The notes beneath the pieces are model-generated. The model made no database searches and was not told the DNA's origin. It saw only the letters and a program-made list of their open reading frames with translations. A stretch of 13,905 bases of DNA from a virus (taxonomy: Duplodnaviria > Heunggongvirae > Uroviricota > Caudoviricetes): the IMG/VR virus record IMGVR_UViG_2534682164_000017; one strand, given 5' to 3'. The stretch's first letter is position 1. Each line of letters begins with the position of its first letter. Shown in pieces: positions 6,109 through 10,299 of the stretch. Made by a program: the position numbers and the translations under genes.

Positions 6109-7488
6109 ATGAACAGGACCAGTCCCCATTATTGTCGCCGCTCAGTACTTTCCTTATTGATATCTGCCTTGATATATGCCCCGCCCGTGATGGCGGCCTT
6201 TACTACTAATGTTATTGGTGTGGTAAACGATGAGACTGTAGATGGCAACCAACGAGTAGATGAACGAGGTACAACAAATAACACTCATATTATCAACCAT
6301 GGCCAGCAGAGTGTTTATGGCGGAGTATCTAATGGAAGTCTTATTGAATCTGGTGGATATCAAGATGTTGGAAGGAATAACAATTATATGGGGCAGTCTA
6401 ATAATACAACCATTAACGGAGGAAGACAGACAATTCATGACGGGGGCATTTCCACCGGTACGATAATCGACAGTGGCAATCAGGACGTTTATACAGGTGG
6501 TATCAGCAATGGAACGACAATTAAGGGTGGTAATTCACACATAAGTGGGGGGACTGCGAATGGAACCATCATTGATGGTGGAGGGCAGACAGTAACAACT
6601 CAGGGGCATGTTGATGGTACAACGATAAATAAGTCCGGTTATCAGGACATCACGCAAGGAAGTATGGCAACGAACACAATCATAAATGGTGGACGACAGT
6701 ATGTTGAACAGAGCACAGTAGGAACAACCACCATTAAAAATGGCGGTGAGCAAAGAGTATATGAAAGCCATGCGCTGGACACGACGATTGAAGGTGGAAC
6801 TCAGTCTCTGAATAATAAGTCAACGGCAAAAAATACTCAGATCTATTCTGGTGGTACGCAAATTGTTGATTACACCAGCTCCTCGGATGTTATTGAAGTT
6901 TATTCCGGTGGCGTGCTTGATGTTAGTGGTGGTACGGCAACAAATGTTACCCAGCACGATGGTGCAATTTTAAAAACAAACACTAACGGTACGACGGTGA
7001 GCGGTACGAATAGTGAAGGTGCATTCTCCATCCACAATCACGTGGCAGACAATGTGTTGCTGGAAAACGGTGGTCATTTAGACATAAACGCATATGGTTC
7101 GGCAAATAAGACGATTATTAAAGATAAAGGAACAATGTCAGTTTTAACGAATGCTAAAGCTGATGCGACCCGAATAGATAACGGCGGGGTAATGGATGTT
7201 ACCAGAAACGCGACCAATACCATAATCAATGGTGGTACACAGAATATTAATAATCATGGTATTGCCACGGGTACCAATATCAACAGCGGAACACAAAATA
7301 TCAAGAGCGGCGGGAAAGCTGACACGACAAATATTTCCACCGGGAGCCGGCAGGTTGTTGAGAAAGATGGTACGGCAACTGGCAGCAATATTAGCGCCGG
7401 AGGCTCGCTGATTGTCTATACCGGCGGTATAGCACATGGGGTTAACCAGGAGACGGGCAGTGCTTTAGTTGCTAGACTGGCCCCCTGA
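6109..7488 (+). CDS. ypjA: AIDA/Ag43-type autotransporter adhesin, N-terminal signal peptide and passenger repeats only; 3' end (rest of passenger and beta-barrel) replaced by IS2
   Basis: AGGA at 6097-6100 and ATG at 6109. Extended autotransporter-type signal peptide MNRTSPHYCRRSVLSLLISALIYAPPVMA. Many approximately 19-residue repeats of the form T-x-I-x-x-GG-x-Q-x-V-x-x-GG-x-A-x-x-T. Native sequence ends at 7472; the ORF's last codons and stop (7486-7488) lie inside the IS2 terminal repeat. Symbol is from synteny recall (ileY, pin remnant, adhesin), unverified. Confidence 0.7.
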   Translation: MNRTSPHYCRRSVLSLLISALIYAPPVMAAFTTNVIGVVNDETVDGNQRVDERGTTNNTHIINHGQQSVYGGVSNGSLIESGGYQDVGRNNNYMGQSNNTTINGGRQTIHDGGISTGTIIDSGNQDVYTGGISNGTTIKGGNSHISGGTANGTIIDGGGQTVTTQGHVDGTTINKSGYQDITQGSMATNTIINGGRQYVEQSTVGTTTIKNGGEQRVYESHALDTTIEGGTQSLNNKSTAKNTQIYSGGTQIVDYTSSSDVIEVYSGGVLDVSGGTATNVTQHDGAILKTNTNGTTVSGTNSEGAFSIHNHVADNVLLENGGHLDINAYGSANKTIIKDKGTMSVLTNAKADATRIDNGGVMDVTRNATNTIINGGTQNINNHGIATGTNINSGTQNIKSGGKADTTNISTGSRQVVEKDGTATGSNISAGGSLIVYTGGIAHGVNQETGSALVARLAP

Positions 7489-7563
7489 ATCTCCAGACAA
7501 CCAGTATCACTTATTTAAGTGATAGTCTTAATACTAGTTTTTAGACTAGTCATTGGAGAGCAG

Positions 7564-7929
7564 ATGATTGATGTCTTAGGACCGGAGAAACGCAGACGGC
7601 GTACCACACAGGAAAAGATCGCAATTGTTCAGCAGAGCTTTGAACCGGGGATGACGGTCTCCCTCGTTGCCCGGCAACATGGTGTAGCAGCCAGCCAGTT
7701 ATTTCTCTGGCGTAAGCAATACCAGGAAGGAAGTCTTACTGCTGTGGCCGCCGGAGAACAGGTTGTTCCTGCCTCTGAACTTGCTGCCGCCATGAAGCAG
7801 ATTAAAGAACTCCAGCGCCTGCTCGGCAAGAAAACGATGGAAAATGAACTCCTCAAAGAAGCCGTTGAATATGGACGGGCAAAAAAGTGGATAGCGCACG
7901 CGCCCTTATTGCCCGGGGATGGGGAGTAA
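7564..7929 (+). CDS. insC: IS2 OrfA (InsC), helix-turn-helix transposition regulator
   Basis: 121-aa translation [56 protein letters not shown]... matches IS2 InsC as recalled. The ORF-track start at 7519 is an in-frame upstream extension. Confidence 0.9.
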
Positions 7930-8792
7930 GCTTAGTCAGCCGTTGTCTCCGGGTGTCGCGTGCGCAGTTGCACGTCATTCTCAGACGAACCGATGACTGG
8001 ATGGATGGCCGCCGCAGTCGTCACACTGATGATACGGATGTGCTTCTCCGTATACACCATGTTATCGGAGAGCTGCCCACGTATGGTTATCGTCGGGTAT
8101 GGGCGCTGCTTCGCAGACAGGCAGAACTTGATGGTATGCCTGCGATCAATGCCAAACGTGTTTACCGGATCATGCGCCAGAATGCGCTGTTGCTTGAGCG
8201 AAAACCTGCTGTACCGCCATCGAAACGGGCACATACAGGCAGAGTGGCTGTGAAAGAAAGTAATCAGCGATGGTGCTCTGACGGGTTCGAGTTCCGCTGT
8301 GATAACGGAGAAAAACTGCGAGTCACGTTCGCGCTGGACTGCTGTGACCGTGAGGCACTGCACTGGGCGGTCACTACGGGCGGCTTCAACAGTGAAACAG
8401 TACAGGACGTCATGCTGGGAGCGGTGGAACGCCGCTTCGGCAACGAGCTTCCGGCGTCTCCAGTAGAGTGGCTGACGGATAATGGTTCATGCTACCGGGC
8501 TAATGAAACACGGCAGTTTGCCCGGATGTTGGGGCTTGAACCGAAGAGCACGGCGGTGCGGAGTCCGGAGAGTAACGGCATAGCAGAGAGCTCCGTGAAA
8601 ACGATAAAGCGTGACTACTTCAGTGTCATGCCCAAACCAGACGGGTTAACGGCAGCAAAGAACCTTGCAGAGGCGTTCGAGCATTATAACGAATGGCATC
8701 CGCATAGTGCACTGGGTTATCGCTCGCCACGGGAATATCTACGGCAGCAAGCCAGTAATGGGTTAAGTGATAACAGGTGTCTGGAAATATAG
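7887..8792 (+). CDS. insD: IS2 OrfB (InsD), DDE transposase catalytic reading frame
   Basis: 301-aa translation [34 protein letters not shown]...[14 protein letters not shown]..., with the IS3-family integrase-like core. It overlaps insC in the -1 frame. Confidence 0.9.
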
Positions 8793-8907
8793 GGGCAAAT
8801 CCAGCGTTCATCAGCCCCCGCATTGCCGACAGGATCACAGACGGGGGGCGCAACTGGTTGTCGTTCAACTGGCCCAGCTACCGTTCTTGTATCAGAGGTG
8901 TGGCTGC

Positions 8908-10299
8908 ATGACAACACCAGTCTGGCGTAATGATGACCTGGAAGGCGCTGTCATTGGCGCATTCTTTCTGCGTGGGGCAGATCATGAAGTGATGGATATT
9001 CTGATCACACTACCGGCGGACATTTTTTCTGTACGAGCGTATCGGGATATCTACACAGGCATCTGCAGACAGGCCCGTGTTTCAGGAGTGATTGACCCCG
9101 TGCTGTTGTGTAATGAGATGCCGGAACTTGCCCCGGTGATTACTGATACCGGGCGTAAAACCTGGGTGAAGTCTTCACTGGAGCACTATGTTGCAGCGTT
9201 GCGGCGCAATGCCGCACTGCGCGATGCAGAAAAAACACTGAATGAGGCGCTGCAGAAATTACGTGATGCGCATACCTGTGAAGCAGCTGAAGATGCCCTG
9301 AAGGATGCGCAGAACATGATGGTCACACTGTCGACAGGAAAGGGCGTCATTCAGCCGGTACATATTGATGATGTGCTTCCGGAAGTGGTTGAGCGTGTTG
9401 AATGCCGGAATCAGGGGCTGGAGAAATCCAGGACGTTGATGACCGGTATTGATGAACTGGACGCAAAAACAGGCGGTATGGAGCCCGGAGACCTGGTATT
9501 CATTGCCGCCCGTCCTTCGATGGGGAAAACCGAACTTGCGCTGGACATCATCGACAAGGTGACTGAGCAGGGGCATGGTGTGCTTCTGTTCACCATGGAG
9601 ATGGCGAACATCCAGATTGGTGAACGTATGGTGTCTGCGGCTGGAGGGATGCCAGTATCACGCCTGAAATCTGTGGCTCACTTTGAAGATGAAGACTGGG
9701 CGCGTTTCTCACAAGGGGTGGGGCGGATGACCGGGCGCAATATCTGGATGGTGGACCAGGCGAACCTGACCATTGATGAGATATGCGCAACAACGAAACA
9801 CCATCTGATTAAACATCCGGAAACGGCGCTGGTGGTGGTTGATTATCTCGGGCTGATAAAAACCCGAACCACGGGGCGTCATGACCTTGCCGTGGGTGAA
9901 ATCTCAAAGGGGCTTAAAGGCCTGGCAAAATCCGGTGGTTTTCCGTTGATTGCGCTGAGCCAGCTCTCCCGCGGTGTGGAGTCCAGACCCAATAAACGTC
10001 CCATGAACTCAGACCTGAAAAATTCCGGAGAAATAGAGGCGGATGCAGACATCATTCTGATGCTTTACAGGGATGAAGTGTACAACCCGGATACACAGGC
10101 TACAGGCATAGCAGAAATTAATATCACGAAACAACGTAACGGTTCTCTGGGGACGATTTACCGGCGTTTTTATAACGGACATTTTCTGCCTGTGGACCAG
10201 GAAAGCGCACAGGTTCTTTCCACCCCAATGCGGCAGCCCCAGCCGCGCAGATACAGCAATACACGTACCGACAGCAGTAAGATGGAGCGTTTCTTTTGA
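8908..10299 (+). CDS. Phage replicative DNA helicase, DnaB family (P22 gene 12-like)
   Basis: DnaB motifs are present: Walker A DLVFIAARPSMGKT, VVVDYLGL, ALSQLSR, EADADIILMLYRDEVY. AGAGG at 8894-8898 and ATG at 8908. The ORF-track start at 8767 lies inside IS2 and is rejected. Confidence 0.85.
   Translation: MTTPVWRNDDLEGAVIGAFFLRGADHEVMDILITLPADIFSVRAYRDIYTGICRQARVSGVIDPVLLCNEMPELAPVITDTGRKTWVKSSLEHYVAALRRNAALRDAEKTLNEALQKLRDAHTCEAAEDALKDAQNMMVTLSTGKGVIQPVHIDDVLPEVVERVECRNQGLEKSRTLMTGIDELDAKTGGMEPGDLVFIAARPSMGKTELALDIIDKVTEQGHGVLLFTMEMANIQIGERMVSAAGGMPVSRLKSVAHFEDEDWARFSQGVGRMTGRNIWMVDQANLTIDEICATTKHHLIKHPETALVVVDYLGLIKTRTTGRHDLAVGEISKGLKGLAKSGGFPLIALSQLSRGVESRPNKRPMNSDLKNSGEIEADADIILMLYRDEVYNPDTQATGIAEINITKQRNGSLGTIYRRFYNGHFLPVDQESAQVLSTPMRQPQPRRYSNTRTDSSKMERFF

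What the first reader, a model, noticed from the sequence alone, without database searches (positions are those of the whole stretch)
7468..8908. IS2 without target duplication fuses a truncated autotransporter gene to a prophage that begins at its helicase gene
The 5 bp left of IS2 (GTTGC) and right of it (GCGTT) differ, so this is not a simple insertion. To the left, the adhesin ORF reads straight into the IS2 terminal repeat and lacks its distal passenger and beta-barrel domains. To the right, phage sequence begins about 100 bp before a DnaB-like helicase gene. The prophage has no replication initiator, immunity region or integrase on this side. The simplest reading is an IS2-mediated adjacent deletion, or recombination between two IS2 copies, that removed the adhesin 3' end together with the prophage early-left and immunity region. 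That would leave a prophage that cannot excise or replicate but still carries Q and the lysis cassette.
Basis: seen in the sequence. Interest (0 to 1): 0.6.

Follow-up and report, generated by a model that had tools for sequence, protein, structure and literature searches.

The report
IS2-bounded deletion joining ypjA to prophage
In Shigella sonnei, one IS2 insertion sequence sits where a stretch of DNA was lost, joining the front third of the adhesin gene ypjA to the middle of a decayed prophage; this is real, but it is the ordinary IS-driven genome decay already known in Shigella.

Summary
IS2 occupies window 7473-8803 (1331 bp). It is flanked by GTTGC and GCGTT, with no target duplication at any shifted boundary. 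Three ordinary IS2 insertions used as controls each have a perfect 5-bp duplication.

The left flank is ypjA/EhaD cut in codon 455, so the beta-barrel is gone. The right flank is the last 35 codons of a phage DnaC-like loader gene, followed by dnaB, rusA, Q, four tRNAs and the lysis genes.

The window is Shigella sonnei, identical to a 53G draft contig. The same junction is present in all 17 S. sonnei loci fetched and in none of 5,426 complete E. coli genomes.

In E. coli, ypjA lies next to ssrA, a prophage attachment site. Prophage Sp17 of O157 Sakai sits in that slot in the same orientation, with its integrase next to ypjA. The missing tail half of the S. sonnei prophage is reported next to ssrA.

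Two points stay open: whether two IS2 copies recombined or a single copy acted, and whether the lost DNA is truly absent from the genome.

Interest is low.

The parts
6109..7472 (+). ypjA/EhaD autotransporter gene, 5' 1364 nt only (signal peptide and proximal AIDA-repeat passenger). The frame continues into IS2 and stops at 7488.
   Evidence: 99.5% identical to annotated ypjA in E. coli. Pfam AIDA repeats, no PF03797 barrel. Intact ypjA continues ...GTTGC|CAACACGGGCG.
7468..7472 (.). Left flank GTTGC, not repeated on the right of IS2.
7473..8803 (+). IS2 (IS3 family), 1331 bp. OrfA is 7564-7929 and OrfB is 7887-8792, with an A6G slippery site near 7880.
   Evidence: Ends and length. HTH_Tnp_1 and rve domains. 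99.9% identical copies occur in E. coli/EIEC chromosomes and large plasmids.
8804..8808 (.). Right flank GCGTT.
8804..8911 (+). Last 35 codons plus stop of a phage DnaC/IstB-like helicase-loader gene. The first 257 codons are missing.
   Evidence: Alignment to the intact gene at L003 7230-8108. Pfam IstB_IS21 on the intact homologue.
8908..10299 (+). Phage DnaB-type replicative helicase, 463 aa.
   Evidence: PF03796 DnaB_C. Annotated as replicative DNA helicase in E. coli relatives at 96-97% identity.
10296..10553 (+). 85-aa phage ORF of unknown function, conserved next to dnaB.
10553..10924 (+). RusA Holliday-junction resolvase.
   Evidence: PF05866
10914..11300 (+). Q antiterminator, 128 aa.
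   Evidence: PF06530. ORF intact in most S. sonnei loci.
11305..11412 (+). Promoter-like site (11305-11334) and terminator-like hairpin (11396-11412). Their position fits a late promoter pR' and terminator tR'.
   Evidence: Consensus scan only. The promoter count in the region is no higher than in shuffled sequence, so this is an inference.
11781..12344 (+). ORF6N-domain protein, 187 aa.
   Evidence: PF10543
12532..12842 (+). Phage tRNA cluster: CAT (Ile2-like), Arg-TCT, Thr-TGT and Gly-TCC.
   Evidence: ARAGORN. The same cluster lies after Q in E. coli relatives.
13523..13738 (+). Class II holin. The lysozyme gene starts at 13738 and runs off the window. The spanin gene lies beyond it.
   Evidence: PF04971. 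Lysozyme and Phage_lysis genes follow in L004 and the other loci.

Best explanation
The window comes from Shigella sonnei. A lambdoid prophage once lay in the ssrA attachment slot directly downstream of ypjA, with its attL/integrase end facing ypjA and its late genes reading towards ssrA. A deletion whose scar is one IS2 copy removed three things: about 3.2 kb of the ypjA 3' end, the attL-integrase-early-immunity-initiator arm of the prophage, and the first 257 codons of its dnaC-like gene.

The most likely route is that IS2 inserted once in ypjA (duplicating GTTGC) and once, in the same orientation, in dnaC (duplicating GCGTT). Homologous recombination between the two copies then excised everything in between. 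This left one IS2 with one flank from each insertion.

Shown directly:
- The hybrid flanks.
- The exact breakpoints in both genes.
- Presence of the junction in all 17 S. sonnei loci fetched.
- The orientation, and the ypjA-ssrA synteny.

Inferred:
- That the lost DNA is gone from the genome rather than moved.
- That two IS2 copies, not one, were involved.

Consequences. YpjA is a barrel-less pseudogene product. The prophage cannot excise, repress or initiate replication. Q, a candidate pR'/tR', the tRNAs and the holin-lysozyme-spanin genes remain as open frames but have lost their natural upstream promoter pR.
For: - Flanks GTTGC and GCGTT with no duplication, against perfect duplications in three control IS2 copies.
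- Breakpoints mapped on intact ypjA and on an intact dnaC-like gene.
- Identical junction in 17 S. sonnei loci, and the truncated protein indexed in 847 blocks. CP022457.1 is named as S. sonnei in PMC6456863. The window is 100% identical to ADUU01000057.1.
- Neither junction is present in 5,426 E. coli genomes.
- The backbone order ypjA-ssrA-smpB-ratA-yfjF-bamE holds in E. coli.
- Sakai Sp17 occupies the same slot in the same orientation.
- S. sonnei ssrA is adjacent to phage tail genes within IS4-flanked invertible blocks (PMC12795559 Table 4).
- IS4 right end, then the 12-bp duplication, then the portal 3' part, protease, capsid and tail genes were recovered.
- The predicted reciprocal junctions are absent from IMG/VR, although the real junction is present there 11 times.
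- No abundant YpjA C-terminal fragment turned up.
- Deletions between homologous IS copies are described as a general mode of Shigella gene loss (PMC7373316).
Against: - No genome with either presumed parental insertion (IS2 in ypjA at this site, or IS2 in dnaC at this site) was found.
- I could not scan a whole S. sonnei chromosome, so absence of the ypjA 3' end and of the prophage left arm is not proven.
- The protein search scored only 8,000 candidates, and IMG/VR holds only regions predicted to be viral.
- The contiguous ancestral order (portal 5' part, IS4, portal 3' part ... ssrA) is inferred from a paper's table and one scaffolded contig that contains an N. It was not read directly.
- The gene order listed in that table does not match L044 in an obvious way.
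Confidence: 0.78

Rival explanations
1. A single IS2 copy, sitting in either ypjA or dnaC, produced the deletion itself through an intramolecular transposase-mediated event. It kept one original flank and acquired a new one, with no second IS2 ever present.
For: The end product would be indistinguishable: one IS2, no duplication, adjacent DNA lost. No parental second insertion has been seen anywhere.
Against: From established knowledge, not tested here: IS2 and other IS3-family elements move by copy-out-paste-in through a figure-eight and a circle. That route does not directly give adjacent deletions the way IS1 or Tn3-type replicative transposition does. S. sonnei carries many IS2 copies and shows repeated recombination between IS copies (PMC12795559 and PMC7373316).
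Confidence: 0.15
2. Recombination between IS2 copies at two distant loci (an inversion or a segment swap) moved the dnaC 3'-dnaB... segment next to ypjA. The ypjA 3' end and the prophage left arm would then survive elsewhere beside a reciprocal IS2.
For: S. sonnei has many IS-flanked inversions, including ones that shuffle this very region. ssrA-smpB are not between the remnant and bamE in L016, L020 or L017.
Against: The IS4 inversions alone explain why ssrA has moved. ypjA and an ssrA prophage are natural neighbours in this orientation, so no distant partner is needed. The reciprocal junction patterns are absent from IMG/VR while the control junction is found. No YpjA C-terminal fragment cluster of S. 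sonnei size was found.
Confidence: 0.06
3. Assembly artefact: a repeat collapsed at IS2 and joined two unrelated contigs. Alternatively, a simple insertion whose duplication has mutated away.
For: The window matches an older draft contig.
Against: The same junction is present in many independent complete chromosomes. The flanks are halves of two unrelated genes, and only 1 of the 5 flank positions matches.
Confidence: 0.01

Closest known systems
IS-mediated deletions and pseudogenes in Shigella genome reduction (expansions of IS1, IS2, IS4, IS600 and IS911; PMC7373316; PMC12795559)
   Same: An IS2 copy from the Shigella/EIEC-type IS2 population marks a gene truncation and a loss of neighbouring DNA. 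The event is present in every S. sonnei locus examined here. Nearby IS1 and IS4 copies drive further inversions.
   Different: I did not find this particular junction (ypjA codon 455 joined to dnaC codon 258) described in the papers I read. It destroys a chromosomal adhesin gene and a prophage control region in a single event.
Prophage Sp17 of E. coli O157:H7 Sakai (defective lambda-like prophage between ssrA and ypjA)
   Same: Same chromosomal slot and same orientation: integrase end next to ypjA, with Q, holin and lysin reading towards ssrA. It is also IS-ridden and defective.
   Different: Sp17 keeps its integrases and an intact ypjA, and it has lost its head and tail genes instead. Its modules are not the same sequences as those of the S. 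sonnei remnant.
Cryptic lambdoid prophages of E. coli K-12 that retain Q and a lysis cassette (DLP12, with essD-rrrD-rzpD)
   Same: A remnant without excision or immunity functions still carries rusA, Q, holin, lysozyme and spanin genes. The E. coli homologues of the remnant's lysis genes are annotated rrrD and rzpD.
   Different: DLP12 lies at argU and keeps its integrase. Here the left arm is removed by an IS2-bounded deletion, and the late region is split by IS4.
Ordinary IS2 insertions in or near ypjA in E. coli (VG48B2 inside ypjA, CP131_Sichuan just upstream)
   Same: Same element, same gene region and same orientation.
   Different: Those are simple insertions with 5-bp duplications (ATACT, CTTTC), and ypjA continues on the far side.

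Membership tests
IS2 (IS3 family insertion sequence) | About 1331 bp with imperfect terminal inverted repeats (TAGACTGG... / ...CAAATCCA) | tested here: met
   7473-8803, 1331 bp. Inverted repeat I6. 96.5-99.9% identical to annotated IS2 copies.
IS2 (IS3 family insertion sequence) | Two overlapping ORFs (HTH OrfA, DDE/rve OrfB) with a -1 frameshift site | tested here: met
   OrfA 121 aa and OrfB 301 aa are both open. HTH_Tnp_1 and rve domains. A6G motif read at about 7880. Relatives are annotated with a programmed frameshift.
IS2 (IS3 family insertion sequence) | 5-bp target-site duplication, the mark of a simple insertion | tested here: not met
   GTTGC against GCGTT. This speaks to the history of this copy, not to whether the element is IS2.
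AIDA-I type (type Va) autotransporter YpjA/EhaD | N-terminal signal peptide and AIDA-repeat passenger | tested here: met
   PF16168 hit, E = 1e-46. 99.5% DNA identity to annotated ypjA.
AIDA-I type (type Va) autotransporter YpjA/EhaD | C-terminal beta-barrel translocator (PF03797) | tested here: not met
   The frame ends at 7488, inside IS2. The barrel is present in the full-length E. coli gene but not here, so this is a pseudogene and not a working member.
Lambdoid prophage | Q antiterminator, late promoter region and holin-endolysin-spanin cassette | tested here: met
   Pfam hits. pR'/tR'-like motifs, by consensus only.
Lambdoid prophage | Integrase/att site, repressor-Cro switch and replication initiator | tested here: not met
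   Absent between IS2 and dnaB. Intact relatives carry them upstream of dnaC.
Deletion by recombination between two directly repeated IS copies | A single IS left with non-matching flanks that were collinear and in the same orientation in the ancestor | tested here: met
   Hybrid flanks. Collinearity and orientation are inferred from E. coli synteny and Sp17 and from the S. sonnei ssrA-phage block.
Deletion by recombination between two directly repeated IS copies | Intervening DNA absent from the genome | tested here: inconclusive
   Reciprocal junctions are absent from IMG/VR, with a positive control. No YpjA C-terminal cluster was found. No whole S. sonnei chromosome could be scanned.
Deletion by recombination between two directly repeated IS copies | Parental single insertions, each with its own duplication, seen in relatives | tested here: not met
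   Neither was found in 5,426 E. coli genomes. Other Shigella genomes were not searchable.

The most novel reading that the evidence does not exclude
The IS2 copy, whose transposase genes read towards dnaB, might supply read-through or hybrid-promoter transcription. That could keep dnaB-rusA-Q, and through Q the tRNA and lysis cassette, expressible. S. sonnei would then retain a domesticated, repressor-less lysis module, for example for stress-induced lysis or release of cell contents. My data do not exclude this. The Q, holin, lysozyme and spanin frames are open in most strains. However, S. sonnei is so clonal (99.8-99.9% identity) that this conservation says nothing about selection, and several strains already carry new IS hits in the remnant.
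Probability: 0.04. Interest if true: 0.45.

Novelty: already known. Interest (0 to 1): 0.15.

Why it matters
The junction is a clean worked example of how IS elements erode Shigella genomes. One IS2-bounded event inactivated a surface adhesin, which fits the general loss of surface structures in Shigella. The same event crippled a prophage.

It has some practical uses:
- The junction appears specific to S. sonnei and is present in all the strains examined, so it could serve as a marker.
- It explains why short-read assemblies break here.
- It helps in reading the IS4 inversions reported for this region.

It does not reveal a new mechanism or a new kind of element.

Tried and rejected
1. Mosaic IS2 as proof of a hybrid. 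The junction IS2 resembles canonical IS2 over positions 133-795 and a variant over 823-1305. This looked like a crossover scar. However, the same mosaic type occurs at 99.9% identity in many E. coli and EIEC replicons, so it is a standing IS2 subtype and not evidence about this event.

2. Parental or same-site insertions in E. coli. None exist. The one ypjA::IS2 found, in VG48B2, is a separate insertion further downstream in ypjA, with its own duplication.

3. Reciprocal-junction patterns.
   - IMG/VR gave nothing, while the control junction was found.
   - JGI metagenomes gave nothing, but the control junction was also absent there, so this is uninformative.
   - The GTDB genome collection gave one hit, a chance 20-mer in a Marinobacter genome with unrelated flanks. 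About one such hit is expected for a 20-mer in 596 Gb.

4. Protein search with the YpjA C-terminal 1031 aa, followed by context look-ups. It returned only E. coli-type fragments, with no S. sonnei 3' fragment. The search scored only 8,000 candidates.

5. Walking along the S. sonnei chromosome with proteins from fetched loci.

6. My first expectation was that an ssrA prophage would have its integrase next to ssrA and its late genes on the opposite strand, which would have argued against a local deletion. Sakai Sp17 shows the opposite layout, so I dropped that objection.

7. Fishing for the rest of contig L044 with a gpL 32-mer. The pattern was too conserved and returned more than 120 unrelated phages. 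One of them, L119, matched 100% over the 2.1 kb it shares with L044, but it has an intact tail region and was not followed further.

8. E. coli prophages with the closest dnaB-Q region (O121, VL40). These sit at yehV/mlrA, not at ssrA. They are mosaic relatives and are useful only for showing which modules normally precede dnaC.
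Full report
**What is there**

Reading the window and matching the element's ends places IS2 at 7473-8803. It is 1331 bp long, running from TAGACTGGCCCCC to GGGGCAAATCCA. Both transposase frames are open. The five bases to the left are GTTGC and the five to the right are GCGTT.

I scanned boundaries shifted by up to 4 bp on either side for repeats of 3-9 bp and found only a meaningless 3-mer. Three IS2 copies that are plain insertions serve as controls, and each has a perfect 5-bp duplication:
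- ATACT inside ypjA of E. coli VG48B2.
- CTTTC just upstream of ypjA in strain CP131_Sichuan.
- GTGTC for an IS2 nested inside an IS4 in S. sonnei.

The missing duplication is therefore real and informative.

**The two flanks**

The left flank is ypjA (EhaD), an AIDA-type autotransporter. It is 99.5% identical to annotated E. coli alleles. The gene starts at 6109 and is cut after 1364 nt, inside codon 455. The frame runs on into IS2, adds RLAP and stops at 7488. The 459-aa product has AIDA repeats but no beta-barrel. In an intact allele the sequence continues ...GTTGC|CAACACGGGCG.

The right flank aligns from base 8001 of an intact E. coli prophage. That position is exactly 257 codons into a 292-codon DnaC/IstB-like ATPase gene. 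So 8804-8911 holds the last 35 codons of the helicase loader, overlapping the dnaB start at 8908.

Downstream genes, in order:
- dnaB
- an 85-aa ORF
- rusA
- Q
- an ORF6N gene
- four tRNAs
- a class II holin
- the start of a lysozyme gene

A promoter-like site and a hairpin lie directly after Q. Their position fits pR'/tR', but they are consensus matches only.

**Where the window comes from**

The truncated YpjA protein is indexed in 847 blocks of public assemblies, mostly on 2-5 kb contigs. That size fits short-read contigs broken at the flanking IS1 and IS2.

All 17 loci fetched around it carry the identical junctions TGCTTTAGTTGC|IS2|GCGTTCATCAGC. One of these records, CP022457.1, is named as Shigella sonnei 2015C-3566 in PMC6456863. 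The window is 100% identical to contig ADUU01000057.1 over the 8.9 kb of that contig that was fetched. From memory, that contig is the S. sonnei 53G draft.

None of 5,426 complete E. coli genomes has either junction. The structure therefore appears to be shared across S. sonnei, and it is not an assembly error.

**Is it a local deletion?**

In E. coli the backbone order is ygaQ-ileY-ypjCB-ypjA-ssrA-smpB-ratA-yfjF-bamE-recN. ssrA is a known phage attachment site (PMC6456863).

I first expected an ssrA prophage to have its integrase beside ssrA, which would have put the late genes on the wrong strand. O157 Sakai shows otherwise. Its lambda-like prophage Sp17 lies between ssrA and ypjA with the integrases next to ypjA. 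Its Q, holin and lysin genes read from the ypjA side towards ssrA. That is exactly the orientation in the window.

To the right of the window, the S. sonnei remnant continues through lysozyme, spanin, HNH, small and large terminase, and a portal gene that is cut by IS4. After the IS4 comes bamE-recN in some strains and raiA-pheA in another. ssrA is absent from its usual place.

A 2026 survey of S. sonnei reference strains explains this (PMC12795559 Table 4). It reports IS4-flanked inversions of two blocks:
- raiA...bamE.
- yfjF, ratA, smpB, ssrA plus about 18 phage proteins, including gpL.

So ssrA is still joined to phage tail genes.

I then recovered a contig (L044) that carries the following, in order:
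- the IS4 right end;
- a 12-bp duplicate, GTCCCGGTGGTG, of the portal sequence that borders the IS4's left end in L020;
- the portal 3' part;
- prohead protease, capsid, connector, tail tube, chaperone, tape measure and gpM.

Its terminase-portal 5' sequence is 99.8% identical to that of S. sonnei. The IS4 was therefore a simple insertion into one continuous prophage.

The inferred ancestral order is: ypjA 5' part, IS2, dnaC 3' remnant ... portal 5' part, IS4, portal 3' part ... tail genes, ssrA, smpB, ratA, yfjF, IS4, bamE. The prophage fills the ssrA slot, and its missing left end faced ypjA.

**Mechanism**

The favoured route is two IS2 insertions in direct orientation, one in ypjA and one in dnaC. 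Recombination between them would leave one copy flanked by one half of each duplication. Deletions between homologous IS copies are a recognised mode of gene loss in Shigella (PMC7373316).

A single-copy, transposase-driven adjacent deletion would give the same end product. From general knowledge it fits the copy-out-paste-in pathway of IS3-family elements less well.

An exchange with a distant IS2 (an inversion or swap with nothing lost) is unlikely for three reasons:
- The synteny needs no distant partner.
- The predicted reciprocal junctions are missing from IMG/VR, where the true junction occurs 11 times.
- A search with the YpjA C-terminal 1031 aa found no abundant S. sonnei-like fragment.

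None of these negatives is a whole-genome test, so absence of the lost DNA remains inferred.

**A false lead**

The junction IS2 looks like a mosaic of two IS2 subtypes, with a switch near position 800. That would have been a neat crossover scar. The same mosaic type occurs at 99.9% identity in many E. coli and EIEC replicons. This matches the report that Shigella and EIEC share a distinct IS2 population. It says nothing about this event.

**State of the remnant**

It is also understated. Beyond the window:
- The portal gene is cut by IS4.
- The two prophage halves are separated by IS4 inversions in lineages 2 and 3.
- Individual strains carry further IS insertions in dnaB, rusA and the ORF6N gene.

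The Q, holin, lysozyme and spanin frames are open in most strains. However, the strains are 99.8-99.9% identical across the region, so this is not evidence of selection. Q has lost its natural upstream promoter, and any expression would need read-through from IS2 or an internal promoter. That was not tested.

**Verdict**

The feature is an instance of well-documented IS-mediated decay in a heavily studied pathogen. Every component is already annotated in public genomes. Interest is low.

Noticed in passing
window 526-1293, 1302-2069, 2499-3266; tRNA at 2113-2188: Three IS1 copies surround the chromosomal tRNA gene ileY (anticodon CAT). Two are direct and nearly abutting, and one is inverted. 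The piece between the inverted copies is flipped in L004, L005, L008-L010, L012 and L013 relative to the window and L007, so it is an invertible segment that varies between strains.
   Followed up: partly
L020 15248-18009 (about 5 kb to the right of the window end); L044 2839-4209: IS4 cuts the prophage portal gene. Its original 12-bp duplication, GTCCCGGTGGTG, is found on contig L044, followed by the portal 3' part and head and tail genes. In L016, L020, L040 and L041 this IS4 carries a nested IS2 with duplication GTGTC. In L017 and L039 it does not. The DNA after the IS4 differs between strains (bamE or raiA), which fits the published IS4 inversions.
   Followed up: yes
L006 (CP032523.1) 318-5854: In this S. 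sonnei strain a P4-like integrase and D5-type primase block replaces the ygaQ side to the left of ypjCB. This is probably another IS1-mediated rearrangement.
   Followed up: no
window 3720-5198: ypjCB is an uninterrupted 492-aa ORF here. In four E. coli comparators it is annotated as a pseudogene with an internal stop.
   Followed up: no
window 12532-12608 compared with 2113-2188: The first phage tRNA (anticodon CAT) is 92% identical to the chromosomal ileY over 62 nt. The same four-tRNA cluster follows Q in several E. coli prophages.
   Followed up: partly
window 11305-11412: A promoter-like site and a terminator-like hairpin lie directly after Q, where pR' and tR' would be expected. This rests on consensus matches only.
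   Followed up: partly
window IS2 positions 542, 1121, 1147 (window 8014, 8593, 8619): The window's IS2 differs at three bases from the copy in the S. sonnei loci compared base by base. Its OrfB sequence is found on only one public contig. These may be strain-specific changes or draft-sequence errors.
   Followed up: partly
L044 2443-2838: This IMG/VR contig has an N at 2819. Ahead of the IS4 it carries a second, slightly different copy of the portal 3' segment. This could be a scaffolding artefact or a paralogous prophage. It is unresolved.
   Followed up: no
PMC12795559 Table 4 compared with L044: The gene order listed in the paper (ssrA, 16 phage proteins, gpL, two IS, one phage protein) does not obviously match the order read from the IS4 end in L044. 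The list may not be strictly positional.
   Followed up: no
L038 (Marinobacter sp. S6332): The 20-mer designed for the reciprocal junction matched once in a Marinobacter genome with unrelated flanks. About one chance match is expected in 596 Gb.
   Followed up: yes
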